From an uncultured Elusimicrobia bacterium (GTDB lineage: Bacteria; Elusimicrobiota; Endomicrobiia; DTEH01): a DNA stretch of 64,000 bases. The DNA lies in NCBI GenBank assembly GCA_964561135.1, contig CAZLOB010000038.1:6427-70426 (forward strand), written 5' to 3'. The notes below the pieces were generated by a model. The model was not told the origin of the DNA. It was given only the letters and a program-made list of their open reading frames with translations, and searched no databases. Positions 607-56,458 of the stretch are shown here, one piece after another (position 1 is the stretch's first letter; the number at the start of each line of letters is the position of its first letter). The position numbers and the translations under genes were made by a program.

Positions 607-924
607 TTATACTTCCTCTAATTTTATACTTGTAGCAATTGTTACTAATTTTTTATATTTTTGTTTGGCAACATTTTTTATTCCATAAACATCCGAGAAA
701 GGGATAACAATTTTTTCTTTATCAAAATCTGGATATGTTTTTATTAATATTTGATAAACACTTTCAGTAACAAAAATTTTTTCATACTCAACATCTTTAG
801 CAACATTTTTGAAAATTTCAACAACTTCATCTTCATTTGCTAAATTTACATAAAACATATCCCAACTAAAAGGTTTGTATATCACAATTGATTCATAGTC
901 ACCTATAACAGCTATTTTTTTCAT
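607..924 (-). CDS. atpF: V-type ATP synthase subunit F
   Basis: I used the internal start MKKIAVIGDYESIVIYKPFSWDMFYVNL (~105 aa), which is typical of V-ATPase subunit F in size and N-terminus. It lies 4 nt upstream of subunit A. The longer 135-aa ORF-track version would run through the adjacent tRNA-Glu, so I rejected it. Confidence 0.55.
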   Translation of the reverse strand: MKKIAVIGDYESIVIYKPFSWDMFYVNLANEDEVVEIFKNVAKDVEYEKIFVTESVYQILIKTYPDFDKEKIVIPFSDVYGIKNVAKQKYKKLVTIATSIKLEEV

Positions 925-937
925 AACCAAAAAAATT

Positions 938-1012
938 TGGCTCCAACGGGATTTGAACCCGTGCTTGCGGCTTGAGAGACCGCTGACCTGAACCAGGCTA
1001 GTCGATGGAGCC
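938..1012 (-). tRNA. tRNA-Glu (anticodon CUC)
   Basis: The reverse complement folds as a cloverleaf. Acceptor stem GGCTCCA/TGGAGCC with discriminator A; D stem GACT/GGTC; anticodon stem GCGGT/GCCGC with loop CTCTCAA (anticodon CTC); T arm ACGGG-TTCAAAT-CCCGT. No encoded CCA. Confidence 0.8.
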
Positions 1013-1120
1013 ATATAATGTTTGTAAGTTTAATTTATTAAAATCATTAAACAAATTCAAGACTTAACTAAAAAACATCATTATGTTGAAAAATTATTTC
1101 AAAATTTTATAAAATTAAAT

Positions 1121-3013
1121 TTGTCAAAAATGATAATAATGAAAAAGTTTAAAAAATTTTCTTTTCTTATTCTTATTATTTATTTAATATTTTTTTCTCC
1201 CATTTTTTCGATATATCTTTTTGGTGTTGTTCCTCATATCACTGGAGAATTTATAAAAGGCCAACCAAGAAGTAGAGTTAAAATCTGCAATGAAGCAAAT
1301 ATTCTTCGTAAAAAGGGAGCCCCTTCTATAGAAATTGCGAGAACTTTAGGTACCATTGGCACAAAAAAAATTGCTGTTATTATTGTTGACTTCTCAGATC
1401 AAGAATTTACTGAATTACCCCAATCAAACATAACTTTTCAAAAGCTAAAAGAATATTACAATGAAGTCTCATATGGCAAATTACAACTTGATATTACATT
1501 TTTCCATCAAAATGGTTCAACAAAAATAATAACAGGACAAGAAATACCATTTAGAATGCCAAAACCCATGGAATATTATGGTCGAGATACAGATAATACC
1601 TTAGCACAATTAGTGAAAGATGCAATCAAAGCTACAAATGGTACTGTAGACAAAAGATCTTATGATTATGTGATGGTATTACATGCTGGATATGGTAACG
1701 AGTCAACAAATAATAAAGAAGATATTTGGTCTGTATATGTTGATTGGGATGACGCTATAAATGGTTTTACAGACGGTACTATTGTCCCTGAAAAAGAGCT
1801 TTATGCTTCTGCAGTAGGTGTCGTTTGTCATGAATTTGGACATCAGTTAGGATTGCCAGATTTGTATTATGGTCAAGAAAGTATTGTAGGTAGATGGTGT
1901 CTAATGGATTATGGTGTTTGGAATGGAGAACCACAAGGTTCATCACCAGCTCACTTGTCTGCTTGGTGTAAACAATTTTTAGGTTGGCTTGAAGTTGAAA
2001 CCGTTACTTCTACTAAAAAGAACATATCGTTGCCTTATATAGAAAGAAATTCTTCAGCAATAAAAATCTTAATTAAAACAGCTAGTAATCCACAAAAAGA
2101 ATATTTTTTATTAGAGTATAGAAGAAAAATTGGATTTGATGCATTCCTCCCAGCAGAAGGATTATTAATTTGGTATATTGATGATAACATTGCTTCTGAC
2201 GAAAATAGGCTAAAAGATAACAATATAAATTCAGGGGAACCGCATTATGGAGTTGATCTAATTGAAGCAGATATGACACCAGCTGGAAAAGACATTGAAA
2301 ATGAAGGTGATCCTTTTCCTGGAGATAAAAATATTACACAGTTCTTCCCACAAGAATATAACATCACAGCTTATAATGGAAATCCTATTAACATGATTAT
2401 ATCTGATATTGAGTTAGACAAAAATAATGCTTATTTTAACATAATTTGTTTTTCAGGTTTATATGTTAAAGTAACTCGCTTAGATGCAATTCCATTAAAC
2501 AATGTTAGAATTGATTTATATAAATATAAAGAAAATATTTCTACCTATACTTATACTTCATTGCAAGGAAGTACAGCAATAGAATTATCTACAGGTATTT
2601 GGAGCGTAACTTATTCATTACAAAATTACACAACTTATTATGAAACTATAGAAATTTTTCCTGAACAACTTATAATAAAAAAAGTCATTTTAAGATACGA
2701 TCCAAGTTTAGTTTTATCAAAAAATGAGTTTATTGTTGGTAATAACTATCTCGATTATACTACACTGAACAAAATTGTATTTAGATATAATGTTGAAGGG
2801 CCAACTGATGTGAAAATTATCGTTTATACTATTTCAGGTAATGTTATTAAAACTTTTGAAAAATATCACGAAAAAGAAGGTTATTATGAAGAAATTTGGG
2901 ATAATGTAAAAGACAAAAATGGTAATGAGTTACCAAGTGGAGTGTATTTTGTAGTCTTTAAGTCGAAGTATTTCAGTAAAGTAGAAAAATTTATTGTAAA
3001 ACAAAAATTATGA
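1121..3013 (+). CDS. Secreted zinc metalloprotease, M6 (immune-inhibitor-A)-like, with C-terminal T9SS/FlgD-Ig-like sorting domain
   Basis: N-terminal signal peptide (MKKFKKFSFLILIIYLIFFSPIFS). Zinc motif VVCHEFGHQLGLPDLYY (HExxHxxGxxD). The C-terminal ~75 aa (KIIVYTISGNVIKTFEKYHEKEGYYEEIWDNVKDKNGNELPSGVYFVVFKS...) matches the T9SS type-A CTD pattern. Confidence 0.6.
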   Translation: MSKMIIMKKFKKFSFLILIIYLIFFSPIFSIYLFGVVPHITGEFIKGQPRSRVKICNEANILRKKGAPSIEIARTLGTIGTKKIAVIIVDFSDQEFTELPQSNITFQKLKEYYNEVSYGKLQLDITFFHQNGSTKIITGQEIPFRMPKPMEYYGRDTDNTLAQLVKDAIKATNGTVDKRSYDYVMVLHAGYGNESTNNKEDIWSVYVDWDDAINGFTDGTIVPEKELYASAVGVVCHEFGHQLGLPDLYYGQESIVGRWCLMDYGVWNGEPQGSSPAHLSAWCKQFLGWLEVETVTSTKKNISLPYIERNSSAIKILIKTASNPQKEYFLLEYRRKIGFDAFLPAEGLLIWYIDDNIASDENRLKDNNINSGEPHYGVDLIEADMTPAGKDIENEGDPFPGDKNITQFFPQEYNITAYNGNPINMIISDIELDKNNAYFNIICFSGLYVKVTRLDAIPLNNVRIDLYKYKENISTYTYTSLQGSTAIELSTGIWSVTYSLQNYTTYYETIEIFPEQLIIKKVILRYDPSLVLSKNEFIVGNNYLDYTTLNKIVFRYNVEGPTDVKIIVYTISGNVIKTFEKYHEKEGYYEEIWDNVKDKNGNELPSGVYFVVFKSKYFSKVEKFIVKQKL

Positions 3014-3888
3014 AAAAATTTATTTATCTAATTTTTATTATTCTTACAATGTTAACATTCTCTTTATCTAATGAAATTAATAATGTGTCAATATCCAACA
3101 GCTATATGCTATCTTCTGAGCAATCTGTTACAGACAATCATAGTTTCAACGCAATCTCAAATCCTGCAATGTTAGCATTCAACTCACAAATTGGGTATTT
3201 ATTAGAATACAACAAACTATTTTATTATGCTCAATCAAATTTTGACAGTATTGGTTTCCTAATTGGTAAAAAAGCTTTTGGTATAGTTATCAACAATTTC
3301 TCATCAGGAAAAATAAGTATAAAAGATATTGAAGGAATTAATACAGGTCAAACTATAGATTATTCTTTAACATCATTTAATTTTGCAGCTGCAATAAGAT
3401 TTACTTTTAATAAATCTGGTAACCTTGCCGGAGGAATTACAGGAATTGTAAACTGGGAAAGAATAAACGTCGAAACAATTACCTATGATGCTAACTTTGG
3501 ACTAGTTTATAACTACGAAAATAAAAACGCTTGTCTTCGATTAGGAACAGTAATCAAAAACATATCTTCAAAAAATACAGCTACCTATCACTGTGGTGTA
3601 TCGATTAAAAGTGGTTCTTTATTTATTATTTGTGGTTATGAAAATAAATTTATAAATAGTTTAAATGAGAAAATAAAATTAGCTGCTATGCTTGATCTAC
3701 CAGTTTTTTATTCTATAATCAAAAATATATCTTTTGGAGTAGGTTATCTTTTCAGTACACAAAATTATATACAACAATTAACATTTGGTTTAAGTATAAA
3801 TTTCAAAATTGTAAGCTTGAACTATTCTTTTGCAACTCATCAATATTTAGGTTCTTCACAAAATTTTCGAATTGGAATAGAACTATAA
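3010..3888 (+). CDS. Outer-membrane beta-barrel protein, possibly PorP/SprF- or PorV-like T9SS-associated
   Basis: Signal peptide and an N-terminal NPA motif (SFNAISNPAMLAF). Alternating hydrophobic beta-strand pattern. Sits immediately downstream of, and overlapping by 4 nt, a CTD-bearing cargo gene. Confidence 0.35.
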   Translation: MKKFIYLIFIILTMLTFSLSNEINNVSISNSYMLSSEQSVTDNHSFNAISNPAMLAFNSQIGYLLEYNKLFYYAQSNFDSIGFLIGKKAFGIVINNFSSGKISIKDIEGINTGQTIDYSLTSFNFAAAIRFTFNKSGNLAGGITGIVNWERINVETITYDANFGLVYNYENKNACLRLGTVIKNISSKNTATYHCGVSIKSGSLFIICGYENKFINSLNEKIKLAAMLDLPVFYSIIKNISFGVGYLFSTQNYIQQLTFGLSINFKIVSLNYSFATHQYLGSSQNFRIGIEL

Positions 3889-4974
3889 ATACTTTCTTGT
3901 ATACAACACAGTACCTATTAGAAAAAATATGATATTAGGTATCCAAACACTTAAATAAGGATTAATTACCCCTGTTTCTCCCAATGTACGCAAAAAGGAT
4001 AAAAATGTCCAATAAACTATAAATACTAATATTACATAAACAAGACTATTTAACTTACCATGCTGAGAAGAAGAAATCTGACCCAATGCAATAGCAAAAA
4101 AAACTATAATAAAATTAAGAAAAGCAATCGAATATCTAAAACTTATCTCTGTAAGAATTCTGTTTGAAGATTCTCCTCTAAATTTACAAATTTTTACTAC
4201 TTGTTTTAATTGATTTAAATTCAGTTGATCAAGTTGCATTGTAGAAAAATTATATTTAAAGTTTTCAACATCAACTGGAAGCAAATATCTATAATTTTTT
4301 ACAATCTTTTCTACGACTGAAGCATTATTGTAGAATTGTTGTATTATAGCATTAGAAAGAATTAGCGAAAGATTATCTTTTATGCCTTCGTTAGAAAAAA
4401 TTTGAAATTTAATTCTCCCATTTTGATATTGCTGCATCAAAAATGAATAAACTTTGTTATTGGTTTTATCATATTTATCTATAAAAATATAAGTCAAAAG
4501 ATCTCCATGATAAAAATAATAAAATAAATCTTTAAGAAAATCTTTCTCGAATTTTTCTTTTTTTATCTTAGTATAAAAAATTTCTTGTGCTTTATAAAAA
4601 TTTTTTGTTGCAACTTTATCATTTACAAAAAATGAAAAAATACTAAAAAGTAACCCCATAACCAACCAAGTTACAAAAAATTGTTTTGTGTCAATCCCCA
4701 AAGTTTTAATCGCTATAATTTCTCTATAATATGTAAAAAAAGAAACGGATAATACAGTTGATAACATTAACGAAATTGGAAGTGTTTGAACGAACCAAAG
4801 AGAAACATGTAATGACAGAAAATTTATTACATCAACGAATTTTGGCTTATGCAAAATAAAATCACCAAATCGCCAAAAAACTTCTGATAAAGCAAAAACA
4901 AATATAAAAAATACCTGTACAGGAAAAAAAATAGATAAAAACTCTTTTAAAAAATATATTTGTAACTTTTTCAT
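3883..4974 (-). CDS. LptF/LptG-family (YjgP/YjgQ) LPS export permease
   Basis: ~360 aa. N-terminal KKLQIYFLKEFLSIFF... TM bundle, then a large periplasmic domain and C-terminal TMs; matches the LptF/G family pattern. Second gene of a tandem pair. Confidence 0.5.
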   Translation of the reverse strand: MKKLQIYFLKEFLSIFFPVQVFFIFVFALSEVFWRFGDFILHKPKFVDVINFLSLHVSLWFVQTLPISLMLSTVLSVSFFTYYREIIAIKTLGIDTKQFFVTWLVMGLLFSIFSFFVNDKVATKNFYKAQEIFYTKIKKEKFEKDFLKDLFYYFYHGDLLTYIFIDKYDKTNNKVYSFLMQQYQNGRIKFQIFSNEGIKDNLSLILSNAIIQQFYNNASVVEKIVKNYRYLLPVDVENFKYNFSTMQLDQLNLNQLKQVVKICKFRGESSNRILTEISFRYSIAFLNFIIVFFAIALGQISSSQHGKLNSLVYVILVFIVYWTFLSFLRTLGETGVINPYLSVWIPNIIFFLIGTVLYTRKYL

Positions 4975-4976
4975 TT

Positions 4977-6080
4977 TTACAAAATTATAGACAAAATAAA
5001 AGACAAAATTAGTAAAAATATATTTGGCAAGTACATAATAAACGCTATAGTAACAAAATTCGGAGAAATATTAGCATTTTCAACAAAAGACATACTTCCA
5101 ATAAGCAAAAAATAATACACACAAATAATAACAATTGCAAAAACAAAACTAAGTGATTTAGCATTTCTTTTAATCCTAGATCCAACTACAATTCCTATAA
5201 TCGTAAACACAACTATACTTAAAGATATTGTATGCCTTAAAAAATATTCGGCCAAAATAAATTTTTTATAATTTATAATGGTTGTTTTATAAAATTCTTG
5301 TAGAAGTTCTTTATTAGACAATTCACGCAAATTTAAAGATTCTGTAACAATTTTTTTAATTTGGCTGTTAGGTATTACAAATTTATAACTATCAAAATTA
5401 ATGTATGTCAACTGAGATGGAAGAGTTTTATCAAAAGTTAAAATTTCTCCTTGGTGCAAATTAAATATGATGTCCACATTACTATTTATAAAAACTTCAG
5501 CAACTTTGGCAAATATTGTTTGGATTATATCTTTTTCAATTGGACTAAAAATATATACGTTATATAAGACAAACTCATTCTTTTTTTGTTCAACAAATTT
5601 TTGATATACAATTTTTTTATTTTGCAAAACAACACTATAACTATTAAAACTCACATAGGGTTTTGATATAACATAATTTATGAACGTATACCTAAATTGT
5701 TTATAACTTTTTGGAACATAAACTGTATTAAAATAAAAGATAATTATTGTAAGCAAAACTGATAAAATAACTAAATTTTTAAAATAAAAACTTTTTTTAA
5801 CACCCATTGTTTGTAAAATTACACTTTCACTCGTCTCATTTAACATAGAAAAAGTAAACAGCACAGATATCAATAAACTTATCGGTATAGTCAATGAAAA
5901 AATAGAAGGTAAAAGATATAAACAAAGCTTTATACTTGTTACAAATTCTGTTTTGTAAGTTAGTAGAGAACTAATTAATTGATATATGTAACTTAATAAA
6001 AACAACAAAGAAGTTACACCAAAATAAATAAAAAAATAAGAAAAAAATGTTTTCAAAATATATTTATTGATTATTTTCAT
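4977..6080 (-). CDS. LptF/LptG-family (YjgP/YjgQ) LPS export permease
   Basis: MKIINKYILKTFFSYFFIYFGVTSLLFLLSYIYQLISSLL...LPSIFSLTIPISLLISVLFTFSMLNETSESVILQTMGV: characteristic permease N-terminus. Paired with the adjacent paralog. Confidence 0.5.
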   Translation of the reverse strand: MKIINKYILKTFFSYFFIYFGVTSLLFLLSYIYQLISSLLTYKTEFVTSIKLCLYLLPSIFSLTIPISLLISVLFTFSMLNETSESVILQTMGVKKSFYFKNLVILSVLLTIIIFYFNTVYVPKSYKQFRYTFINYVISKPYVSFNSYSVVLQNKKIVYQKFVEQKKNEFVLYNVYIFSPIEKDIIQTIFAKVAEVFINSNVDIIFNLHQGEILTFDKTLPSQLTYINFDSYKFVIPNSQIKKIVTESLNLRELSNKELLQEFYKTTIINYKKFILAEYFLRHTISLSIVVFTIIGIVVGSRIKRNAKSLSFVFAIVIICVYYFLLIGSMSFVENANISPNFVTIAFIMYLPNIFLLILSFILSIIL

Positions 6081-6192
6081 TATTTATATTTCAAAAAATT
6101 TTTTAAAAATATGTAAAAATCTTGTGTATTTTTATATATAACTATACACAATTTGTAAAGAATTATCCACAAAATATAAAAAAATCAAACAC

Positions 6193-9100
6193 ATGTTAAA
6201 AGGAAAGATTTTCTTATTCATATTTATAATACTTTCCTACAATATTTTATTTTCACAAGAAAACGTAGAGGAAAACAAAATTAAATTTGACCAAAAAAAA
6301 TGGAATCGAATAAGAGAATGTATAGAAAACAATCTCCCATTATACGAGGAAGAAAAATCAACAAAAGTAGTTACAAAACCTTCTGTTGCTACTCCAACAA
6401 CTATAGAGTTTATTGAAGGAACACAACTTACTATTAATGGACGGAAACTTATTGGTATGGAAATCACATCAGTCAACTATCCATACAAACCTAATTATAA
6501 TAGAACAGATATAAATATGCGACAAGAATTACAAGTATCAGTGAAAGGAAAAGTAGGAAAGAATATAGATGTAAATATAGACATAGATGACACACAACCT
6601 GATAAACGAGATATATCTATTATATATCGTGGTGAAGGAGTAGACGTAACGCCTGGAGCTGTTGGGTACAAAGCAAAGCCTGGAGCTTTTATCCAAGAAA
6701 TAGCTTTTGGAGATATTCAACTTAGCCTACCAAACACAGAATTTGTAGGTTATTCAAGACAAGTTTTTGGGATAAAAGCTATTGTTCAATATGATCGTGC
6801 ACGAATGTATTTAATCGCTTCACAATCAAAAGGTAATTTTGAAACAAAAAGATTTACAGGAAAAACTGAGTTTGAACGAAAAATTATTTCTGACACATCG
6901 TATATACGAAGAAAATACTACAAAATTTTATTCGGTAATCATAAAATTAAAAGAGAAACAGTCAAAGTTTACTTAGATACTTTAGATCCGCAACGAGATC
7001 CTGCAACACTTATTGAACTTACAGCACAAGCTTTTCATATATCAACTTTTACTTATTCTGGTAAATTTGAACAGTTAGCTTTAGGGAAAGATTATGTTAT
7101 CGATTATTCCTTAGGTATTATAACTTTTTATAGACACATACAACCGAATTATATAATTGCAATTGACTACTTTGATGAGAACTCTGGTCTTACTTTAAGA
7201 GAACTTGCTAATACAACAAATTATATCCTAATAAAAGATAAAGATGAGACACCAAATATTACAACCGAATTGTTAAACAGATATTATATTGGTAGGACAA
7301 ACATTATCCGTGATGATGGCACAGGTAATTTTTTGTTAAGAATTATCGACAAAAGTGGCCGTATTTTAAATCCTGAAATAGATAAAATTCAACCTGACGA
7401 CAAAGACATCCCTGTTTATAAAACAGGAAATGTTGGTGATATTAAAGTTGATTTTGAAAACGGAATCATATATTTTGACCAAGAAAAACCTTTTGCAGAG
7501 GATTGTTATTATAAAACTCCAATAAGTAGATATGATATTCTTGTGGAGTATAGATATAAGTCTAAAACATATTTTTTAAAACCATTTATTGTACCTTATT
7601 CAGAACGTGTTGTTGTTGATGGAAAACTTCTACAACGTAATGTTGACTATTGGTTAGATTATGATTCTGGAATACTTTCCTTTTTGCGTGAAGAAGACAT
7701 AAAAGAAAATAGTATAATTGAAGTAAGTTATGAATACAGTATGTTAGGATTACAAGGTGGTGAAACAATATTAGGAAGTAGGTTAGAATTACCTTTGTCA
7801 AACAAATTATTTATAGGTGGAAGCTGGATCGGCAATCTACCTTCAAAAGGTTCTTCAGTGCCTGATATAAGAACAACGCCTTCATCATTGCAAATCTGGG
7901 AAACAGATGCAAGAATCACTTCTGTTAAAATTCCTCTTTTACCTTTACAGATAAATTCTATCTCTGCTGAATATGCTGAAAACGAAAAAAATCCTAATAT
8001 ATGGGACAAAGCCGTTGTTGAAAACATGGAAGGGATAACTTTAGAAGATAGTGTTTCAACATATAGACATATGTGGTATTATAGTTCTTGTAGTGATATA
8101 TATATTCCTGGAAGGTATGACGATAAAACTGATAAACTTGTTGAAGGAGAATTAAACTGGGAAAACGAAGATGTTCCTGTACAAGAAATAAACCCAAATA
8201 GACAAACTACTTACGATAAACAACAAGTGTTGAAAATAAATTATAATTTGTATTCATCACAAGAAGTTGCTATGGCATATTTATTCTCAAAATATGGTCT
8301 TGATTTCTCAAAAAAGTTATATTTAGAAATGGAGTATTATAGCAATGCTGGTGGTGGCGAGTTATATCTTGATCTTGGTCATCCTAGTGAAGACATTGAT
8401 GGTGACGGAGTTTTAGATACGGAAGACAAAAATTCTAACGGTAGATTAGATTTTAATGAAGATACAGGTTTTGAGTATAACAGAGATAACAAGATATACT
8501 ATATAGGCGGAAGTAATGGTAAACTGGACACTGAAGACATTGATGGTGATGGTATACTAAATACAAATGATATTCTCGCTGGGACATACAAAATTTCTGA
8601 TTTAAATTTTACTGGATGGGTATCAACCATCGTTCCTATATCAATAACAGACAAAACAATGTGGACATCTATAAAACAAGTGAGATTAAGAATAAAAGGA
8701 AAAGGAAAAAATGGTGTTGTGAAAATAGCAAAGATTTCTGTTGTAGGAAATAAGTTTGAAATTCATACTCCTCAAAATACAGAAATCTATGCTGTCAACA
8801 ACGAAAATGATCCTACTTATAAAAAACTTTCAGAACTTGAAGAATATACTTCTATATACGGTACACAATATAAAGAGAGACTAGTTGAACAAGCATTAGC
8901 TGTAAAATATAATCTTGACCCAACTTATTCTTCATCAGTTATAACTTTATCATTTTCTCGTGGACAAGATTTTACTTATCACCGTAAATTTAATTTCTTT
9001 TTATTTAATAAAACTGGCAATGAAATTGTATTTAAATTACGTATCTATACGGACCAAAATAACTATCTTGAGTTTTCTACACAAACTATAAGATGGACAA

Positions 9101-11346
9101 ATGAATGGAAAAAATTTAGTATAGAACAAATAGATATAAATAATGACCATGTACCTGATAAATGGGAAATACTAGAAAATTCGGCTTCAGGTGGATCTTG
9201 CCATACTTACGGGACGCCAAACTTGCGCGGTATAACAAAAATTGAGTTTATTATTGAAAACCCACTTAATTCTTCTCAAGAAGGAATTCTTTATATTAAT
9301 GATGTATACCTTTCTGAAAGTTGGAAACGAAAAGGTATCGCAAGAAAAATAGAAACAAGTTTGTCTATTCCGGGATGGATAAACTTTGGTGGGTATAGCC
9401 GTTCTGTAGACAGAAAGTTTGAAACGTTTACCAGTGCTATAACAAACCAAGATAATATATCAGTGAACAGTTTCTTTGATTTTATAAAATTAAAATTTAT
9501 GCCGATAAGTTTTAAAGGAAAACAAGAAAAAACAGTCACTCCGTCAGCATTGAAATCAGGTGAACTTGTTTCAACTCTTGAAGAAGGTAAAAGAATTTAT
9601 ACTGAAGGAAGTATAAACACTTCCATAAATGTCAAACATCTACCCCAAATCGGACTAACATATTCAAAATCTATTAGTTCAGCAACAGCGTTAAATCGTA
9701 CAGATATAAAAGATAACTATCAAACTACAATAAGCTACTACAATCCATTAAAAAAATATATACCATTAACTAGTATATCCTTATCTTATGGTGAAGAAAA
9801 ATTATTGTTATACCCATGGGAAGTAGGGTCTTCCACTCCACCAATCATGGATAATACAAAAAATATAAGAATACATTTACCATTTGAATTTTGGAATAAA
9901 CTGAGTTTAGATGCAAGATTTTCTACAAAAAATATATTTTCTGAAAATAGAATATTTTATAAAAAACCCGCTGAAGAGTTTATAATACCAGAACTTGACT
10001 CTAAAACAGATATTTTTGACTACTACACAAAACTTACTTTTTTTACCCTTTATAATTTACAAAAAACATACCAGTTGTATTACACAACAAATTCTATAGT
10101 TACAGATCGATACGAAAAAAGAAATGAATATGCTACCGAATTAAATTCTTCAATAAATTTATTAAAGTTTTTCTCACCAAACATTGGGTACAGAATGAAT
10201 ATTTACGAAGATTTCAACTTTCCTGTTTCCGACAAAAAGGATATAACACGGAACGCATCTGGTAATTTCTCAGTAAATTTTATGCCTAAAGATGTACTAA
10301 ACATTAAACCTATCCAGACACTGCGATTGTATTATTCTTTTAACATAACTGCCGGTGATAGATACGAAAAAATACCTAAAAACGAAAAATATATAGATCT
10401 TTATAATTTTAAAAACATTGATTTGTTTTGGTACAAAACCGAAGTTTCTACAATTACAGAGCTAAGAAGGAATATGTTTGAACGAAAAGAACAAAGAATT
10501 ACAAGTAGTTGGAAATTATTTGAAGGTCTTTCATTAAAAGGTAATCTAAGCTTTCTTGCGAAAACAGACATAAATCTCACTTATTTTGATTCTGTTGAAG
10601 AAAAGGAGGAAACCTTATCAAAATCTATCGTTTATACAAAAATGTGGCCTGATTTAACCTCTACTTTATACGATATAGAAAATATAATAAATCTCTTTGT
10701 TAAACAAAACAAGATAAAAAATACTAGATTGGATTTGTCATACTCATACAAAATAACCGAAACTAAAAAAGTAAATCTTGAACAAAATATAAAACATAAA
10801 GAAGTTCTAAGCTTTAGTTTATTTGACGACTATCAAATTGTTTCAAGTTATGAAAGAAATTATTTAGATACCTACAGTTTTATTCATTCTTTAAAAACTC
10901 TTATGTCATTTACAGATATAATTGGATTCCAAATAAGTTTCCCCTTTTTCGGACAAAGATTAACACCAAAATATGAGTTTAGAAAAGATTACGCTGAAGA
11001 TGCTCGTAAATTACCAACTAAAAATATAACTACTCATTCACTAACTCTAACTTATTACGCTGACATTACTCCTCAACAAGGAATAAAATTGTTTGGCAAA
11101 ACTATCCCATTGCAAAACAGATTAAGAATAAATTCTAACTTATCATATACACGAAAAGAAAGTCCTATTGATATTACACATAATAACACGGACAACTTCT
11201 CTTTTTCTGCACGTGGTGATTACGATGTGTCAAAATATATTAACCTCACTGTTGAATTAGCAACAAATGTCAATATAAACCGTGTAGTAAAAACAGAAAC
11301 AAACTATAGGTTTTCTTTAAAAGGGCAAGTTATCATAAGATTCTAA
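6193..11346 (+). CDS. Giant (1717 aa) secreted outer-membrane protein with thrombospondin-type-3-like Ca-binding repeats and a C-terminal beta-barrel signature. Candidate SprA/Sov-like T9SS translocon or novel OM protein.
   Basis: Signal peptide MLKGKIFLFIFIILSYNILFSQ. Aspartate-rich repeats DIDGDGVLDTEDKNSNGRLDFNEDTG and DTEDIDGDGILNTNDI. The terminal sequence ...NYRFSLKGQVIIRF ends in Phe, as is typical of OM beta-barrels. Confidence 0.5.
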   Translation: MLKGKIFLFIFIILSYNILFSQENVEENKIKFDQKKWNRIRECIENNLPLYEEEKSTKVVTKPSVATPTTIEFIEGTQLTINGRKLIGMEITSVNYPYKPNYNRTDINMRQELQVSVKGKVGKNIDVNIDIDDTQPDKRDISIIYRGEGVDVTPGAVGYKAKPGAFIQEIAFGDIQLSLPNTEFVGYSRQVFGIKAIVQYDRARMYLIASQSKGNFETKRFTGKTEFERKIISDTSYIRRKYYKILFGNHKIKRETVKVYLDTLDPQRDPATLIELTAQAFHISTFTYSGKFEQLALGKDYVIDYSLGIITFYRHIQPNYIIAIDYFDENSGLTLRELANTTNYILIKDKDETPNITTELLNRYYIGRTNIIRDDGTGNFLLRIIDKSGRILNPEIDKIQPDDKDIPVYKTGNVGDIKVDFENGIIYFDQEKPFAEDCYYKTPISRYDILVEYRYKSKTYFLKPFIVPYSERVVVDGKLLQRNVDYWLDYDSGILSFLREEDIKENSIIEVSYEYSMLGLQGGETILGSRLELPLSNKLFIGGSWIGNLPSKGSSVPDIRTTPSSLQIWETDARITSVKIPLLPLQINSISAEYAENEKNPNIWDKAVVENMEGITLEDSVSTYRHMWYYSSCSDIYIPGRYDDKTDKLVEGELNWENEDVPVQEINPNRQTTYDKQQVLKINYNLYSSQEVAMAYLFSKYGLDFSKKLYLEMEYYSNAGGGELYLDLGHPSEDIDGDGVLDTEDKNSNGRLDFNEDTGFEYNRDNKIYYIGGSNGKLDTEDIDGDGILNTNDILAGTYKISDLNFTGWVSTIVPISITDKTMWTSIKQVRLRIKGKGKNGVVKIAKISVVGNKFEIHTPQNTEIYAVNNENDPTYKKLSELEEYTSIYGTQYKERLVEQALAVKYNLDPTYSSSVITLSFSRGQDFTYHRKFNFFLFNKTGNEIVFKLRIYTDQNNYLEFSTQTIRWTNEWKKFSIEQIDINNDHVPDKWEILENSASGGSCHTYGTPNLRGITKIEFIIENPLNSSQEGILYINDVYLSESWKRKGIARKIETSLSIPGWINFGGYSRSVDRKFETFTSAITNQDNISVNSFFDFIKLKFMPISFKGKQEKTVTPSALKSGELVSTLEEGKRIYTEGSINTSINVKHLPQIGLTYSKSISSATALNRTDIKDNYQTTISYYNPLKKYIPLTSISLSYGEEKLLLYPWEVGSSTPPIMDNTKNIRIHLPFEFWNKLSLDARFSTKNIFSENRIFYKKPAEEFIIPELDSKTDIFDYYTKLTFFTLYNLQKTYQLYYTTNSIVTDRYEKRNEYATELNSSINLLKFFSPNIGYRMNIYEDFNFPVSDKKDITRNASGNFSVNFMPKDVLNIKPIQTLRLYYSFNITAGDRYEKIPKNEKYIDLYNFKNIDLFWYKTEVSTITELRRNMFERKEQRITSSWKLFEGLSLKGNLSFLAKTDINLTYFDSVEEKEETLSKSIVYTKMWPDLTSTLYDIENIINLFVKQNKIKNTRLDLSYSYKITETKKVNLEQNIKHKEVLSFSLFDDYQIVSSYERNYLDTYSFIHSLKTLMSFTDIIGFQISFPFFGQRLTPKYEFRKDYAEDARKLPTKNITTHSLTLTYYADITPQQGIKLFGKTIPLQNRLRINSNLSYTRKESPIDITHNNTDNFSFSARGDYDVSKYINLTVELATNVNINRVVKTETNYRFSLKGQVIIRF

Positions 11347-27955: not shown

Positions 27956-29232
27956 AGCTTTTAATCAAAAATGGTATTGTAGTAGAACCTTCAAAAAAAT
28001 TGCAGCAACAATTAGATGTATTAATAGATAATGGTAAAATTGTAAAAATAGCAAAAAAAATTGATTTAAAAGAAAAAACAGAAATAATAAATGCAAAAAA
28101 TTGTATTGTATGTCCAGGACTGATAGATATTCATACACATCTTCGTGAACCTGGTAACGAAGAAGAAGAAACAATTGCTACCGGAACAAAATCAGCAGCA
28201 GCTGGTGGGTTTACAACTGTATTTTGTATGCCAAATACTAACCCACCTATAGACAATCAAGCAACAGTAGAACTTGTAATGCTTAAAGCAAAAAATGAAG
28301 GAGTAATAAATGTTCTCCCTATTGGATGTATAACAAAACAACGTAAAGGTGAAGAACTTACTGAAATTGGCGAACTTAAGAACGCTGGTGTTGTAGCAAT
28401 TTCTGATGATGGTTCACCAGTGAAAAATTCTAAAATAATGCGTCGTGCTTTAGAATATGCGAAAATGTTTGATTTGGTTGTTATCTCGCATTGTGAAGAT
28501 ACTGATTTAAGTAAAGATGGAGTTATAAACGAAGGAAAAGTTTCAACACAACTTGGTCTTCGTGGTATACCTAAAGAAGCAGAAGAAATTATGGTAATTC
28601 GTGATATAATTTTAGCATCTTTAACACAAAGCAGGCTTCATATTACCCATGTCTCAACAAAAGGAGCAATAGAATTTATTCGTCAAGCTAAAAAAAATGG
28701 TGTAAAAATTACCTGCGACGTCACACCACACCATTTTGTGTTAACTGAAGAGAAACTTTTAGAACGACCATATGATACAAATTTAAAGATGAACCCTCCA
28801 CTTAGAACACAGGAAGATGTCAATGCTATAATTGATGGGTTAAAAAATGATGTTATTGATTGTATATCTTCTGACCATGCACCACATACTATAGAAGAAA
28901 AAAACAAAGAATTTGATTTAGCCCCTTTTGGTATTATTGGATTGGAAACAGTTCTACCTTTATGTATTACTTATCTTTATCACTTACATAAAATTCCTTT
29001 AATAAAACTATTAGAAAAATTAACAACAAATCCAGCAAAAATCTTTAACTTGAAAACTAAAGGAAGAATAGATGAAGGTTTTGATGCTGATATAACAATT
29101 TTTTCTTTAGACGAAGAGTTTGTTGTTAAAAAATTTTATTCAAAAAGTACTAACTCACCTTTTATCGGATGGAAACTAAAAGGTAAAATAAAATATACGA
29201 TTTGTAACGGAAAAGTTGTTTTTAAAGACTAA
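27952..29232 (+). CDS. pyrC: Dihydroorotase (class I)
   Basis: [10 protein letters not shown]; [10 protein letters not shown]; size and order after pyrB. Confidence 0.9.
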
Positions 29233-29237
29233 AAGAT

Positions 29238-31231: not shown

Positions 31232-32173
31232 TTACTTTACAAATTCGAAAACTAAAGAAATCCTGTGAATATAACCTAACTCTTCACCAAAATATGTAAC
31301 CGCATAATCTAAAGAAGATCTAACACCAATAGCCGAGATTTTTTCCCACGAAGTTTCTTTACCTATTTCTGTTTTTACTCCAACTCCGAAACACCATCCT
31401 TTTTGAAGATCAACATTGTCTATTTGGTTATATCCAACACGAACAAAATATTTGTCTTGATATATATATTCTGCACCTGTATAAAACTTAATATTTGCAT
31501 CTTGTGGTTTTTCAATATCTAACCCAATAGATATATTATTTTTAGGTTTATATCCAGCACCAAATCTTATACTGAAAGGCAAGTTGTTTACTACATCCGA
31601 AACAATTATTTGTGTCCCTAAATTCTGCACATTAAGACCAAAAGAAAATTTTTCTATTAAAAACAATCCTGAAATATCAGCTGCGAAACCGTTTGCATTA
31701 TATTGACCATATTTTTGTAGAATACTTTTAACACTAATACCAAGGTTTAAATTTTTTGTAAAACTTCTCGCAAAAGTTAATACAATAGCAGCGTTGTATA
31801 TATCTTGTGCGTTTTCAATAAGACCACCGTTCTCATCACGAAATTCAAACCCACCACCAAAAGACAAGTAGTTCACAGCAACACCTACTGATTGTTTACC
31901 GAAAGGATATACAAAACCTAAGTAAGTACTATTTATTCCTTCAAACCATTGTAGATACGAAATAAATAATTCTGGATAAAGAACCAGAGTTGTCCCTGCA
32001 GGATTAAAATATATACTATTAACATCATCTGATATCCCAACGAACGCATTTCCCATACCAGCAGGTCTGCTACCAGGTGTAATTTTTAAAAACAATGCTG
32101 TTGAAGAACTTTTGTTATCTCCAGCAAAAAGAAAATAAACAAAAATAAGAATTATAATTAAGTATTTCTTCAT
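31232..32173 (-). CDS. Outer-membrane beta-barrel protein (PorV/PorP-SprF/FadL-like), downstream of giant T9SS-CTD cargo
   Basis: Internal start MKKYLIIILIFVYFLFAG avoids overlap with the upstream gene. Conserved N-terminal block PGSRPAGMGNAFVGISDDVNSIYFNPAGT. Terminal ...SLVFEFVK. Confidence 0.4.
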   Translation of the reverse strand: MKKYLIIILIFVYFLFAGDNKSSSTALFLKITPGSRPAGMGNAFVGISDDVNSIYFNPAGTTLVLYPELFISYLQWFEGINSTYLGFVYPFGKQSVGVAVNYLSFGGGFEFRDENGGLIENAQDIYNAAIVLTFARSFTKNLNLGISVKSILQKYGQYNANGFAADISGLFLIEKFSFGLNVQNLGTQIIVSDVVNNLPFSIRFGAGYKPKNNISIGLDIEKPQDANIKFYTGAEYIYQDKYFVRVGYNQIDNVDLQKGWCFGVGVKTEIGKETSWEKISAIGVRSSLDYAVTYFGEELGYIHRISLVFEFVK

Positions 32174-32192
32174 ACATTTTATTTTTATAATT

Positions 32193-35100
32193 TTATTTTT
32201 TAATAACAACTTGTTTTTTAGTAACAACATATTTCTTTCCTGACATTTCTTCAACTATAATTTTGCAAACATATACACCACTACCAACTTTTTGTTTTGC
32301 TTGGTTATCACATAACCATTCATATTGTTTATTTTCACCAGCAGAAGGATCAAGTTCTTCTTCTTTTACAAGTTCACCTAAAATGTTATAAATTCTTAAA
32401 GTAACTTTTTTTGCTGGATTTAATAATGAATATCTTAAAGTCACTTTACCAATTGAAGATGGATTAGGAAAAGTATACACACTATCTTTAAAAACTTCCT
32501 CTGCTGTAATAATATTTATGAAAAATTTCGATATATAAGTTGGCGAGGTGTTACCTGCGTTATCAACCAATGTTATATTTATTCTATATTCTCCATTAAT
32601 ATTCTGCTCGGGAAATGATAACAAAATAAGATAAGTAGTTGCGCTAATCTGTGTTAGTGATTTTATTGTTGAAACTTCTTTACCATCGGGACGATAAAGT
32701 CTAACATTTTGTGCTGAAAGATTTACTCCTGAACCACCTGTTTCTGTAAAAATTATTTGAATAGAACTAACTGCAACAGTAAATTTAGCGCCATCTTGTG
32801 GCCAAACAGATATAACTATTGGTGATGAAGTATCAGTTGCATATAGCTCTTGTAATTTCTTAAAGTTCACAGTAACAGAGGAAACAAGTGTGAGATCAAA
32901 ATCTATAACTTTTGCAAAAAAAGTCCTTGTTCCAGGTATGTTGCCAGTGTATACTGCTTTCACTTGACCATTAACATCTGTATAACTTGATAAAATAATA
33001 AACATATCATCTTGTGGTTTACTATCAACATATATTAAAACTTGTTTTTGTCCGATAGAAGGTATAGATGAAGAAATGATATTTCCGTATTGATCTTTAA
33101 GTGTCACCGTTATAATCACAGAACTTCCTATTAAAACATCATACGCAGTTGATTCTATTGTTGAGACAGTAGGTGACGGTTTCCCAGCAATAAGATCACT
33201 ACCTGGTAAAAACATAACAGCTGCTGTCGATAAAATTGTTTGGTTATCTGTTATATTATAAGCAGTGATAAATTTTAATTCTGCTTTTGTAGATGACAAC
33301 GTAGCAAAAGTTTGTCCTAAACTATTTGTTTTATCCTGTGGTTGAATAATTATATTCTGGGAACCAGTTACTGAAATTGACGCATCTTTATTAGCAACGG
33401 GTTGATTTGCAACATCTTTTAATGTTATAACAACATTTATTGTTGAACCAACAACAGCTTCATAATATTTTGTATAACTATCAATAATAGTCACACTTGA
33501 GAAAAATACACTTACTGCCCTTGTTATCCAAAACGTTTGTGATGCAGATTGTAATCCAGGATAAAAAACTGTAATGTTTTGTACGCCTGCTTCATTATCT
33601 CTGTATCTAAAACGCGCTTCTCCTAACACCATATTTACAGAATTACCTATCTCTACATTCGCTGTTGAACTTATAAAAGCATAATCTGAAGATGTTGTCT
33701 CTAAATAAACAATTCCTTCAATATCAACATCTTTATTTCCTTTTTCATCCTGTGCTTGGACAATAATTATTTGTGATGAAGACCCAGTAAGCAATTCCTG
33801 CCCAGCAGTAATAAATACAAGTTTTGTTGCAATAATATTATCAACTTGGAAACTCCCTGTTTGAACTGTTAAACCTACACCGTCTTCATCTTCAGGTGTA
33901 ATACGTATAGCTGTGGACACATCTTTATTGGGAAGGTCTTTTGTTGAATCCCAAATGAATGTATGTTCTTCACCTGATAAAGAAGCAAGTAAGTTTTCTG
34001 TTGGTTCTGAAGCGATCCATCTTGTAGCTGGTTTCCAATTACCATCTGTATCACGAAATTCTACTTTTATTTTACAATAATTATACGGCTCAGGTTTATC
34101 ATCTTCATCTATCAACCAATACTTTATTGTTACCAACCCTGTTTGTTCAGTAGATGGTGTTTCAATGACAACTTTTGGTGGTGTCCCTCTTACAACAAAT
34201 GTCTTAATTTCTGTGGCTTGTCCTGACGCTTCGTTTATTGATAAAACTACTGGTAAAGAAGTAGAATATATGTTATATGAATACGTTGCAATAGTTATAC
34301 TATATGGATTTTCAGCATAGAACCTATATTTTATTCTACCACCACTCCTACCAATACTACCAAACGGATAATTTATATTACTTAACACAAAATGGTATAT
34401 CTCACCATTAGTATAATCGCCATCATTACCCACACCTACTTTAAGTTGCATACCAAATTGTTCTGTTGTTTGGAATATAAGGTCATCGTTCAAATCAACC
34501 CATACTTGGACAGTAGTCGGCGGGTTACCATTACTTGCTAACCCAAGGTCAAAATATTTCACCTGAAATTCAACAGAACCAAATCTATCTATATAATTTG
34601 GTTCAACACCATCATCTACAAAACCACTAAAACCGCTATATACAATAGTAGGATCCCAATAAATTATGCTGTTAACCAAATCATCAGGTAAAAATGGTCT
34701 TGTATAATCTCTAAATGTTAAAACAGAATTTTTTGCACGAACATTAAAACATGCAGAAATTGTTGCTGTGTTTGTGTCAAGAACAATATTATCAAAAGTA
34801 TGTATGATATTGTTTGCAGTAATAAATGTAGTATATGTGGTAGCGGGTTGCAAGTTAGCAATATAAATTTTGTTTGTATTATTGAGTGGTGAACTATTAA
34901 ATGTGAGACCATTTGAATTTAAGAAAGTGAAACTTGTATATTCAATTTTAGTAATAGTTCCACCTAATGATAGTCCGTAATAAAAAAATTCTGTTCCAGA
35001 AACTATGTCATAACTTTTATCTTCAGCAAGTTTTCGCGTTACAATAGTAGGGGCTGCAGGATGACCAACAAATTCTATTGTTGCACCATCTTTGTTTTCA

Positions 35101-56401: not shown

Positions 56402-56458
56402 TTTCTTCCTCCTTTCCACTATAATAGACAAGAAATCTTTTAAAAATGTTCCCAGAGA

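What the first reader, a model, noticed from the sequence alone, without database searches (positions are those of the whole stretch)
1121..3888. T9SS-type cargo (M6 protease) immediately followed by a ~290-aa OM barrel; same pairing seen again at 31232..37475
Both CTD-bearing proteins (the M6-like protease, and the 1760-aa beta-helix/Ig surface protein) are followed within 0-20 nt by ~300-aa signal-peptide proteins. Each of those has an N-terminal NPA motif block and beta-barrel periodicity. This cargo-plus-PorP/SprF-like arrangement is known from Bacteroidota for type-B CTD cargo. Here the CTDs look type-A-like. That points to dedicated cargo-specific OM partners in a non-Bacteroidota lineage.
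Basis: partly seen in the sequence, partly recalled or inferred. Interest (0 to 1): 0.5.

Follow-up and report, generated by a model that had tools for sequence, protein, structure and literature searches.

The report
Secreted proteins paired with private PorV-like carriers
In a bacterium of the phylum Elusimicrobiota, two surface proteins carrying a type-IX-secretion-style tail are each encoded just before their own PorV-like outer-membrane barrel, near a shortened copy of the secretion pore SprA. The textbook rule is one shared PorV carrier for all such cargo, in a system thought confined to Bacteroidota and their relatives.

Summary
Two signal-peptide proteins with C-terminal tails are each followed by a ~300-aa barrel gene: an active-looking M6 metalloprotease (1121-3013) and a 1760-aa beta-helix/Ig protein (32193-37475). 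The gaps are a 4-nt overlap and 19 nt.

The tails are type-A-like, not type B. The organism is Elusimicrobiota (class Endomicrobiia), outside the FCB group. A true but shortened SprA translocon homolog (6193-11346; E 1e-85 to solved SprA) lies 2.3 kb from pair 1.

Orthologous cargo-barrel units persist down to 36-38 % barrel identity. Across about ten phyla, barrel-adjacent proteins are strongly enriched for such tails (p 1e-12).

Best reading: a T9SS-like pathway in which type-A-like cargo has dedicated PorV-family carriers or anchors. This is the genetic logic known for type-B cargo with PorP/SprF, and it resembles PorU-PorV and PorZ-PorQ. I could not test whether the motor and sortase genes exist. 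Verdict: new variant of a known kind, moderately high interest.

The parts
1121..3013 (+). Cargo 1: secreted M6-family zinc metalloprotease, 630 aa, with a signal peptide, catalytic domain at aa 86-352 and an intact HEFGH motif
   Evidence: TIGR03296 171 bits (cut-off 110.8) and Pfam Peptidase_M6 E 3e-17. Orthologs precede barrel-1 orthologs in L001-L007 and L095/L096.
2693..3010 (+). C-terminal tail of cargo 1 (about aa 525-627): type-A-like T9SS sorting domain / FlgD-Ig-like beta-sandwich
   Evidence: Scanned alone: TIGR04183 30.4 bits (cut-off 23). Within the whole protein: 21.9 bits. FlgD_ig 25.6 bits (cut-off 27). No type-B hit. Own tail HMM E 1e-19, aa 525-627.
3010..3888 (+). Barrel 1: 292-aa divergent PorV/PorQ-family 14-strand outer-membrane barrel, translationally coupled to cargo 1 by an ATGA overlap
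3883..6080 (-). lptG/lptF (LPS export permease genes). Conserved neighbour, divergent from the SprA homolog. Context only, not shown to be part of the system.
   Evidence: Pfam LptF_LptG in precomputed calls. The same divergent lptGF/sprA-like arrangement occurs in L009, L097 (Endomicrobium proavitum) and L098.
6193..11346 (+). Shortened homolog of the T9SS outer-membrane translocon SprA/Sov (1717 aa against 2403 aa in F. johnsoniae), with a signal peptide and a C-terminal ...IIRF
   Evidence: TIGR04189 E 4e-22, 77 bits, below the cut-off of 200. The family is conserved across Elusimicrobiota, and some members carry Pfam SprA_N. Family profile against PDB: SprA 6H3I_A, E 1e-85, profile 140-1370 aligned to SprA 150-1895.
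32193..37475 (-). Cargo 2: 1760-aa secreted surface protein with parallel beta-helix repeats and Big_1 Ig-like domains (adhesin-like)
   Evidence: Beta_helix E 6e-16, NosD, Big_1. Orthologs precede barrel-2 orthologs in L008 (82 %), L009 (45 %) and L015.
32199..32501 (-). C-terminal tail of cargo 2 (aa 1659-1759): type-A-like sorting domain
   Evidence: TIGR04183 19.9 bits (cut-off 23), FlgD_ig 26.7 bits (cut-off 27), Por_Secre_tail 19.5 bits, no type-B hit. Own tail HMM E 3e-22. Similarity score 0.54 to the tail of the L015 ortholog.
31232..32173 (-). Barrel 2: 313-aa PorV/PorQ-family outer-membrane barrel, 19 nt downstream of cargo 2
   Evidence: NF033709 163.6 bits (cut-off 90). PorQ 94 bits and PorV 74 bits, both below their equivalog cut-offs. 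Family profile against PDB: PorV 6H3I_F E 5.8e-33, FadL only E 0.04. Junction sequence.

Best explanation
The window encodes parts of a T9SS-like outer-membrane export pathway in an Elusimicrobiota (Endomicrobiia) bacterium. In this pathway each type-A-like cargo brings its own PorV-family carrier.

Proposed steps:
1. The M6 protease and the beta-helix adhesin-like protein cross the inner membrane through Sec. Signal peptides are present (shown).
2. Their roughly 100-aa C-terminal beta-sandwich tail targets them to the SprA-type translocon encoded at 6193-11346. Homology of the tail and of the pore is shown; their interaction is inferred.
3. The barrel made from the same mRNA docks at the lateral opening of the pore and binds the tail with its extracellular loops, as PorV does in structure 8GL6. 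It then leaves the pore with the cargo (inferred by homology).
4. Carrier and cargo are made in fixed proportion from one transcript. The carrier therefore probably stays bound to an uncleaved tail and anchors the protein on the cell surface. Known parallels are PorV holding PorU, PorQ holding PorZ, and PorP/SprF holding type-B cargo (inferred).

In short, type-A-like signals and PorV-type barrels are used here with the one-cargo-one-carrier logic so far described only for type-B cargo.
For: Barrel identity:
- Barrel 2 passes the PorV/PorQ family cut-off, and its family profile hits solved PorV at E 6e-33.
- Barrel 1 links to that family by hhalign at 97 %, by its farthest sequence relatives and by fold.

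Tails:
- They are type-A-like and not type B.

Pore:
- A SprA homolog lies in the window.
- In L095 the SprA homolog directly follows the M6-barrel pair. It is also near cargo-barrel pairs in L009 and in the Aerophobetes locus L016.

Coupling:
- A 4-nt overlap and a 19-nt gap, with no terminator.

Conservation as a unit:
- The M6 + barrel-1 pair recurs in all relatives examined.
- The beta-helix + barrel-2 pair persists down to 36-38 % barrel identity.

Generality:
- 60 of 69 informative loci from about ten phyla have a same-strand ORF ending just before the barrel. 37 of those ORFs are at least 500 aa, and 36 of the 37 end in this tail by eye.
- FlgD_ig-type tails occur in 25/39 adjacent C-termini against 11/141 controls, p 1e-12.
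- 7 of 10 barrels not used to select the loci are paired.
- Two pairs occur within 6 kb in the Elusimicrobiota locus L010.
- The upstream partners are diverse passengers, not PorU or PorZ.
- Tail similarity tracks barrel similarity (Spearman 0.55, Mantel p 0.001).

Precedent:
- PorU-PorV and PorZ-PorQ retain their tails on PorV-like barrels (PMC10202324).
- Type-B shuttles are encoded immediately downstream of their cargo and are stoichiometric (PMC12618676).
Against:
- Both tails fall just under the curated cut-offs when scored within the whole protein. Barrel 1 and the SprA homolog are also below their NCBIfam cut-offs.
- Whether the genome encodes the GldKLMN/PorKLMN energy chain, PorU, PorZ or SprE is unknown. 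None is in the 64 kb or in the flanks I saw.
- A third PorV/PorQ-like barrel of the same organism (L001 1366-2271) follows a lipoprotein without a tail, so not every barrel is cargo-paired.
- 24 of 79 tail-bearing proteins in the loci have no barrel directly downstream.
- The tail-barrel similarity correlation is confounded by shared phylogeny.
- The barrel-1 model was built with PorV-like sequences in its alignment, which biases it towards that fold.
Confidence: 0.6

Rival explanations
1. The barrels are ordinary, interchangeable PorV paralogs, that is, general carriers. They sit next to highly expressed cargo only for co-regulation or gene dosage and have no cargo specificity and no lasting attachment.
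For: In Bacteroidota one PorV serves all type-A cargo, and recognition is structural and plastic (PMC12618676, PMC10994853). 24 of 79 tail-bearing proteins have no adjacent barrel, so some barrel must serve several cargos. A third barrel in the same organism has no tail-bearing partner.
Against: The two window barrels have diverged beyond BLASTP detection while each keeps its own cargo ortholog. Barrel 1 is a narrow family of 15 representatives; in every context I could examine (the exact protein, P0002 and P0004) it follows an M6 gene. Translational coupling by an ATGA overlap suggests fixed stoichiometry, which is the argument used for non-recycled type-B shuttles (PMC12618676).
Confidence: 0.15
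2. The two pairs are this lineage's attachment complex rather than cargo with private carriers. The M6 protease with barrel 1, next to the SprA homolog, would replace PorU-PorV as a metalloprotease tail-processing enzyme. The beta-helix protein with barrel 2 would replace PorZ-PorQ.
For: From my own knowledge, porU-porV are adjacent genes in Bacteroidota. PorU is a protease with a retained tail bound to PorV, and PorZ has a retained tail bound to PorQ (PMC10202324, PMC11285876). The M6 gene sits beside lptGF and the SprA homolog in the window, L095 and L098. The window barrels score slightly better on PorQ than on PorV.
Against: No homology of the passengers to PorU or PorZ; only the tails match. 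Many unrelated passengers are paired with barrels in other genomes, with two or more pairs per locus in L010, which fits a general cargo module better. M6 proteases with type-A tails are already classed as ordinary T9SS cargo in NCBIfam (NF052323).
Confidence: 0.07
3. The module works independently of the SprA homolog. The FlgD-Ig-like tail is simply a plug or anchor domain that inserts into or binds its FadL-type barrel, as in a two-gene surface-display device, and export uses another route.
For: The tails score about as well on FlgD_ig as on the T9SS model. No motor or sortase genes were seen. Endomicrobium proavitum keeps the SprA homolog but has no barrel or tail hits within 10 kb of it. 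Literature says T9SS genes are absent outside the FCB group (PMC11285876).
Against: A SprA homolog is conserved throughout the phylum and is repeatedly next to the pairs. The barrels are specifically PorV/PorQ-like by sequence, and PorV's only known role is at SprA. A 14-strand FadL-type barrel is too narrow to export a 1760-aa folded beta-helix protein (inference from the fold).
Confidence: 0.1
4. The barrels are FadL-type uptake channels for hydrophobic compounds, and their position next to the secreted proteins is coincidental.
Against: No hit to FadL/Toluene_X models. The barrel-2 profile hits PorV at E 6e-33 and FadL at E 0.04. Adjacency is far beyond chance in the window (2e-4) and across phyla (p 1e-12).
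Confidence: 0.03

Closest known systems
PorV (LptO), the general type-A carrier of the Bacteroidota T9SS (solved in 6H3I and 8GL6)
   Same: Same protein family and fold: a 14-strand FadL-type barrel with an N-terminal NPA region. The barrel-2 profile hits PorV at E 6e-33, and the barrel-1 model is closest to PorV. It is associated with type-A-like tails and with a SprA homolog.
   Different: In Bacteroidota one PorV serves all type-A cargo and is thought to be recycled (PMC12618676). Here there are at least three paralogs within about 45 kb. Two are encoded immediately after a specific cargo and have diverged from each other beyond BLASTP detection. Neither reaches the PorV equivalog cut-off (74 and under 36 bits against 250).
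PorU-PorV and PorZ-PorQ sub-complexes of the P. gingivalis attachment complex
   Same: A protein with a type-A tail is held permanently on a PorV/PorQ-family barrel through an uncleaved tail. From my own knowledge, porU and porV are adjacent genes. The window barrels score best on PorQ among the equivalog models.
   Different: The partners here are an M6 metalloprotease and a beta-helix/Ig protein. They are not homologs of PorU (a C25-like cysteine peptidase) or PorZ beyond the tail. The same arrangement is used for many unrelated passengers in other genomes.
Type-B cargo with PorP/SprF-family shuttles (SprB-SprF, Fjoh_3952-Fjoh_3951)
   Same: Identical genetic logic: the cognate shuttle is encoded by the gene immediately downstream, expression is stoichiometric, and the shuttle anchors the cargo on the surface (PMC12618676, PMC9143113).
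   Different: A different tail class (TIGR04183-like, not TIGR04131) and a different barrel family (PorV/PorQ, with no PorP/SprF hit). The phylum is also different.
SprA/Sov translocon of Flavobacterium johnsoniae and P. gingivalis
   Same: Homologous over most of its length (profile E 1e-85 to 6H3I_A). It has a signal peptide and a beta-barrel-type C-terminus.
   Different: About 700 aa shorter (1717 against 2403 aa), below the NCBIfam equivalog cut-off, and annotated only as 'hypothetical protein' in Elusimicrobiota records. It is divergently paired with lptGF. Its partners (Plug, PPI, SprE, Skp) were not examined.

Membership tests
T9SS type-A sorting domain (TIGR04183 / PF18962) | Domain lies at the extreme C-terminus of a Sec-exported protein | tested here: met
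   Matches end 3 and 9-17 residues from the C-termini. Signal peptides are present.
T9SS type-A sorting domain (TIGR04183 / PF18962) | Score at or above the curated cut-off (23 bits for TIGR04183, 27 bits for PF18962) | tested here: inconclusive
   M6 tail: 21.9 bits within the whole protein but 30.4 bits scanned alone. Beta-helix tail: 19.9 bits. PF18962: 15.8-19.5 bits. FlgD_ig scores are similar (21.7-26.7 bits, cut-off 27).
T9SS type-A sorting domain (TIGR04183 / PF18962) | Seven-strand Ig-like beta-sandwich that binds PorV loops inside SprA | not tested
T9SS type-B sorting domain (TIGR04131) | HMM match at the C-terminus | tested here: not met
   Neither window cargo hits it at E <= 1. 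Only 4 of 39 barrel-adjacent tails in other genomes hit it.
PorP/SprF shuttle family (TIGR03519 / PF11751) | HMM match | tested here: not met
   Neither window barrel hits it at E <= 1. The only hit I saw is a weak 26-bit one on an L010 barrel.
PorV/PorQ family (NF033709) | Score at or above the cut-off of 90 bits | tested here: met
   Barrel 2 scores 163.6 bits. Barrel 1 scores only 35.6 bits (E 7e-9), so by this criterion alone barrel 1 fails.
PorV/PorQ family (NF033709) | Homology of barrel 1 to the family shown by more sensitive means | tested here: met
   hhalign 97 %, E 7e-11. Own barrel-2-family HMM E 3e-9. The farthest hits of the barrel-1 profile are family members at 107 and 186 bits. 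PorV is the top structural match.
PorV proper (NF033710) or PorQ proper (NF033711) or PorV2 (NF052325) | Score at or above the equivalog cut-off (250 / 220 / 325 bits) | tested here: not met
   Barrel 2 scores 74 / 94 / 60 bits. Barrel 1 does not hit any of them. They are family members, not orthologs of the named proteins.
SprA/Sov translocon (TIGR04189, PF14349) | Full-length homology to SprA | tested here: met
   Family profile against 6H3I_A: E 1e-85 over profile positions 140-1370. The single sequence scores only 77 bits (cut-off 200) on TIGR04189. Relatives carry PF14349.
SprA/Sov translocon (TIGR04189, PF14349) | 36-strand barrel with a lateral opening and cap | not testable with these tools
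   The protein (1717 aa) exceeds the 1200-aa limit of the structure tool.
Complete T9SS as defined in Bacteroidota | GldKLMN/PorKLMN energy chain, PorU sortase, PorZ, SprE/PorW and PorT in the genome | not testable with these tools
   Only 64 kb plus 6.6 kb of this organism are available. None of these genes is in that stretch or in the flanks of related loci.
FadL / Toluene_X transporters (PF03349) | Sequence match to the family | tested here: not met
   No Pfam hit. The barrel-2 profile hits FadL only at E 0.04-0.3. The fold is shared.
Peptidase M6 (TIGR03296 / PF05547) | Catalytic domain match and an intact HExxH motif | tested here: met
   171 bits (cut-off 110.8) and HEFGH present. This differs from the 'inactivated' M6-like T9SS cargo family NF052323, on which it scores 91 bits (cut-off 600).

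The most novel reading that the evidence does not exclude
The cargo-plus-private-PorV-type-carrier operon may be the widespread, possibly ancestral, form of SprA-dependent secretion. It occurs in Elusimicrobiota and in many other phyla: Aerophobetes, Poribacteria, Hydrogenedentota and Desantisbacteria outside the classical FCB list, and Zixibacteria, Ignavibacteria, Gemmatimonadota and others within or near it. On this reading the single recycled PorV of Bacteroidota is a derived simplification, and porU-porV and porZ-porQ are surviving relics. In Elusimicrobiota the pathway may run on a shortened SprA without the GldKLMN energy chain or a PorU sortase.
Probability: 0.25. Interest if true: 0.8.

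Novelty: new variant of a known kind. Interest (0 to 1): 0.62.

Why it matters
Current T9SS models rest on Bacteroidota. They state that all type-A cargo shares one PorV shuttle, that only type-B cargo has cognate shuttles (PMC12618676), and that T9SS genes are absent outside the FCB phyla (PMC11285876). This locus challenges those statements in three ways.
- It shows a SprA homolog, PorV-family barrels and type-A-like tails in Elusimicrobiota.
- The type-A-like cargo is wired genetically to private PorV-type barrels.
- The same wiring recurs across many candidate phyla.

If this holds, several things follow.
- It widens the known range of SprA-based secretion.
- It offers a natural set of diverged tail-carrier pairs for working out how carriers recognise tails.
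- It explains hundreds of 'hypothetical' barrel genes sitting next to giant surface proteins in metagenome-assembled genomes.
- It gives an evolutionary origin for the PorU-PorV and PorZ-PorQ sub-complexes.

Tried and rejected
1. PorP/SprF identity of the barrels: no hits. Rejected.
2. Upstream partners being PorU or PorZ themselves, as in the canonical porU-porV pair: 31 of 39 tails match the PorU and PorZ C-termini, but full-length scans of nine partners match only in the last ~100 aa. Rejected.
3. A 'passenger swap' in L015, with the same tail and barrel but a different passenger: this was an artefact of an N-run that removed the ORF from my BLAST database. The passenger is homologous. Withdrawn.
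4. The idea that the 505-aa M6 protein in L098 lacks both tail and barrel: wrong. It has the tail, and a 527-aa barrel with the PorV signature lies upstream of it.
5. First AF2 model of barrel 1 from 5 sequences: pLDDT 47, not usable. It was replaced by a 22-sequence alignment.
6. Single-sequence phmmer of the SprA-like protein, and the barrel-1 profile, against PDB: no significant hits. The SprA link needed a family profile, and barrel 1 needed profile-profile and fold comparison.
7. Promoter and terminator scans: promoter-like hits are at or below shuffle expectation in this AT-rich DNA. The only use was to show no terminator inside the pairs.
8. Looking for motor or sortase genes near SprA homologs in large contigs (L094, L097, L098): none seen, but the flanks are only 10 kb.
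9. Literature searches for Elusimicrobia with T9SS, 'PorV2' and 'PorV-like': no description of this arrangement in the library searched.
Full report
OBSERVATION

The window is low-GC (about 29 %) chromosomal DNA carrying housekeeping clusters: dcw/mur, lptFG, carAB, pyr genes and two tRNAs.

Pair 1, on the + strand:
- A 630-aa protein at 1121-3013 has a signal peptide and an M6 metalloprotease domain. It scores 171 bits on TIGR03296 (cut-off 111) and has an intact HEFGH motif.
- Its stop overlaps by 4 nt the start of a 292-aa signal-peptide protein at 3010-3888.

Pair 2, on the - strand:
- A 1760-aa protein at 32193-37475 has parallel beta-helix and Big_1 domains.
- After 19 nt and no terminator comes a barrel gene whose likely start is the ATG at 32173. 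The mechanical ORF to 32254 is over-extended.

HMMs that I built from tails and barrels find exactly two tail-bearing proteins and two barrels in the 64 kb, and these are the two pairs. A gene-order permutation gives about 2e-4 for both adjacencies arising by chance.

WHAT THE PARTS ARE

Tails.
- Within the whole proteins the two C-termini fall just under the curated cut-offs. TIGR04183 gives 21.9 and 19.9 bits against 23, and FlgD_ig gives 21.7 and 26.7 bits against 27. There is no type-B (TIGR04131) hit.
- Scanned alone, the M6 tail reaches 30.4 bits on TIGR04183.
- I therefore call them type-A-like, and formal membership is borderline.

Barrels.
- Neither hits PorP/SprF at E <= 1.
- Barrel 2 passes the PorV/PorQ family model (163.6 bits, cut-off 90) but not the PorV, PorQ or PorV2 equivalogs. 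A profile of its family hits solved F. johnsoniae PorV (6H3I_F) at E 5.8e-33 and FadL only at E 0.04.
- Barrel 1 hits the family model weakly (35.6 bits, E 7e-9). It shows no BLASTP similarity to barrel 2, and its profile finds nothing in PDB.
- Caveat: that model's alignment included PorV-like sequences.
- Both families have an invariant NPA near the N-terminus.

Pore.
- The 1717-aa protein at 6193-11346 lies 2.3 kb from pair 1, across lptGF. It gave a partial sub-threshold hit to the SprA/Sov model (E 4e-22).
- Its family is conserved across Elusimicrobiota. The closest named members are Endomicrobiia MAGs at about 66 %, and Endomicrobium proavitum is at 30 %. Most are annotated 'hypothetical', and several carry Pfam SprA_N.
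- The family profile matches solved SprA (6H3I_A) at E 1e-85 over most of its length.
- So a core T9SS component is in the window, about 700 aa shorter than in Flavobacterium.

LINEAGE

The nearest species-representative genome for barrel 2 is an uncultured Elusimicrobia MAG at 79 %, followed by Elusimicrobia RIFOXYB2_FULL_48_7 at 38 %. SprA-like relatives are Endomicrobiia. The organism is therefore Elusimicrobiota, outside the FCB group.

IS THE PAIRING MEANINGFUL?

- Orthologous units persist. The M6 + barrel-1 pair occurs on all contigs carrying the identical barrel and in relatives at 54-59 % barrel identity. In L095 the SprA homolog follows directly.
- The beta-helix + barrel-2 pair occurs in L008 (passenger 82 % identical), L009 (45 %) and L015.
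- In L098 an M6-with-tail gene sits beside lptGF and the SprA homolog, with a 527-aa PorV-signature barrel immediately upstream. The partners are the same but the order is reversed.
- The pattern is general. I fetched 80 genomic loci with barrel-2 relatives from Elusimicrobiota, Aerophobetes, Poribacteria, Zixibacteria, Ignavibacteria, Gemmatimonadota, Cloacimonadota, Hydrogenedentota, KSB1, Calditrichota and others. Of the 69 with enough upstream sequence, 60 have a same-strand ORF ending just before the barrel. 37 of those ORFs are at least 500 aa, and 36 of the 37 end in the same kind of tail.
- Formal scans give FlgD_ig in 25/39 adjacent C-termini against 11/141 control C-termini from the same loci (Fisher p 1e-12). 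Type A hits 26/39 and type B hits 4/39.
- 7 of 10 barrels that were not used to select loci are paired, and 55 of 79 tail-bearing proteins are followed directly by a barrel.
- The Elusimicrobiota locus L010 has two pairs within 6 kb.
- The partners are not PorU or PorZ. Only their last ~100 aa match those models, and the passengers are varied: beta-propeller, delta-60 repeats, intimin-like and unknown.
- Tail similarity correlates with barrel similarity (Spearman 0.55, Mantel p 0.001; 0.26 among pairs with unrelated passengers). Shared ancestry contributes to this, so I count it only as supportive.

MECHANISM

The best-supported reading has four steps:
1. Sec export to the periplasm.
2. Tail-directed entry into the SprA-type pore.
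3. Capture of the tail by the co-expressed PorV-type barrel docked at the pore's lateral opening.
4. Lateral release of the barrel-cargo complex, with the barrel probably remaining as the surface anchor.

What is shown: homology of pore, barrels and tails; operon structure; conservation and enrichment of the pairing. What is inferred: the physical contacts, specificity and retention of the tail. These inferences rest on the PorV-substrate-SprA structures (PMC10994853), on PorU-PorV and PorZ-PorQ (PMC10202324, PMC11285876), and on the stoichiometry argument made for type-B shuttles (PMC12618676). I put this reading at about 0.6.

Rivals:
- Non-specific PorV paralogs kept nearby for co-regulation (0.15).
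- A SprA-independent display device (0.10).
- A lineage-specific attachment complex, with the M6 protease standing in for PorU (0.07).
- Unrelated FadL-type channels (0.03).

COMPARISON WITH WHAT IS KNOWN

- T9SSs are described as restricted to Bacteroidota (PMC4793230) or possibly present in other FCB phyla, with T9SS genes 'absent from other bacterial phyla' (PMC11285876).
- A review speculated that 'cognate PorV-like beta-barrels' may protect tails from cleavage, citing PorZ/PorQ (PMC10202324).
- NCBI's annotation pipeline already names some Elusimicrobiota barrels 'PorV/PorQ family protein', so the barrel family's presence there is visible in databases.
- In the library available I found no description of cargo-adjacent PorV-family barrels for type-A-like tails, or of a SprA homolog in Elusimicrobiota.
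- I therefore rate this a new variant of a known kind.

LIMITS

- Only about 70 kb of this organism could be read. The presence or absence of GldKLMN, PorU, PorZ and SprE is unknown, and no genome-wide count of pairs was possible.
- No complex prediction was available.
- A third PorV/PorQ-like barrel of the same organism, just left of the window (L001 1366-2271), follows a lipoprotein without a tail. It could be a general carrier.
- The locus around the SprA homolog of the cultured Endomicrobium proavitum shows no barrels or tails within 10 kb.

VERDICT

The barrel family was wrong, but the essential idea of dedicated carriers for type-A-like cargo outside Bacteroidota was right. Interest 0.62.

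Noticed in passing
L001 1366-2271 (- strand), about 5 kb left of window position 1 (L001 overlaps the window from L001 position 6599 at 99.8 % identity): A third PorV/PorQ-like barrel of the same organism: 301 aa, PorV_fam 82.7 bits, with an SNPAG motif. It follows a 399-aa predicted lipoprotein with List_Bact repeats and no T9SS tail. It may be a general carrier or a PorQ analog.
   Followed up: partly
window 3883-11346; also L009, L097 (Endomicrobium proavitum CP009498) and L098: The LPS-export permease genes lptG-lptF are divergently paired with the SprA homolog throughout Elusimicrobiota. This hints at co-regulation of LPS export with this outer-membrane pore.
   Followed up: partly
L048, L050, L051, L054, L057, L068, L076, L088 (upstream of the barrel in each): A tail-bearing protein family, mostly about 1050-1180 aa (663 aa in L054), with a conserved '...VVPNPY...GRGERxIYFxxLP...' C-terminus. 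It precedes the PorV-like barrel in Ignavibacteria, Caldithrix, KSB1, Gemmatimonadota and Delongbacteria. It occupies the porU position, but the five members I scanned (L048, L050, L054, L076, L088) gave no NCBIfam hit beyond one tail match to PorZ.
   Followed up: partly
L030, L038, L039, L041, L044, L052, L056, L063, L064, L065, L069 (just upstream of the barrel): In Zixibacteria and Cloacimonadota loci the PorV-like barrel is preceded by a conserved-size 155-170-aa ORF, often overlapping by 4 nt, instead of a large cargo. Its identity is unknown.
   Followed up: no
L009 9174-11015 and L098 4304-5887: Longer barrels (527-613 aa) with the PorV-family N-terminal signature (RPxGMGxAF...NPAG) sit next to lptFG and the SprA homolog in other Elusimicrobiota. 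The L098 barrel has a Pro/Val/Thr-rich C-terminal extension, and the L009 barrel carries Pfam TraF_2.
   Followed up: partly
window 55715-58305 (- strand): An ECF sigma factor (57751-58305), a 430-aa protein with N-terminal TPR repeats and a barrel-like C-terminus ending ...GIGLYF (56459-57751), and a zf-HC2 anti-sigma factor (55715-56431) form one cluster.
   Followed up: no
window 41380-42648 (- strand): A 422-aa protein with a Clp1-type polynucleotide-kinase P-loop domain (PF16575, E 2e-34). From my own knowledge this domain is best known from eukaryotes and archaea. It is conserved in the relative L008.
   Followed up: no
window 54780-55604 (- strand): A secreted 274-aa low-complexity protein with (DV)n repeats near the N-terminus and a Q/Y-rich C-terminus. 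It matches no family in Pfam or NCBIfam.
   Followed up: no
window about 29000-31200: Gene orientation switches from + to - (convergent), and cumulative GC skew peaks here, next to tRNA-Ala (30927-30999). This could be a replication terminus or simply a strand switch.
   Followed up: no
window 607-1014 (- strand) and tRNA-Glu 937-1013: The mechanical ORF is over-extended across the tRNA-Glu gene. The V-ATPase subunit F-like protein probably starts at Met31 (MKKIAVIG...), near position 924.
   Followed up: no
L007 3198-5116: In a relative at 54 % barrel identity the M6 gene is split into 379-aa and 203-aa ORFs, through a frameshift, pseudogenisation or assembly error. The barrel downstream is intact.
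   Followed up: no
window 29238-30815 (- strand): A membrane GAF / HD-type phosphodiesterase / PilZ protein lies downstream of pair 2, across tRNA-Ala. It keeps that position in L008, which suggests possible c-di-GMP-linked control of the surface protein.
   Followed up: no
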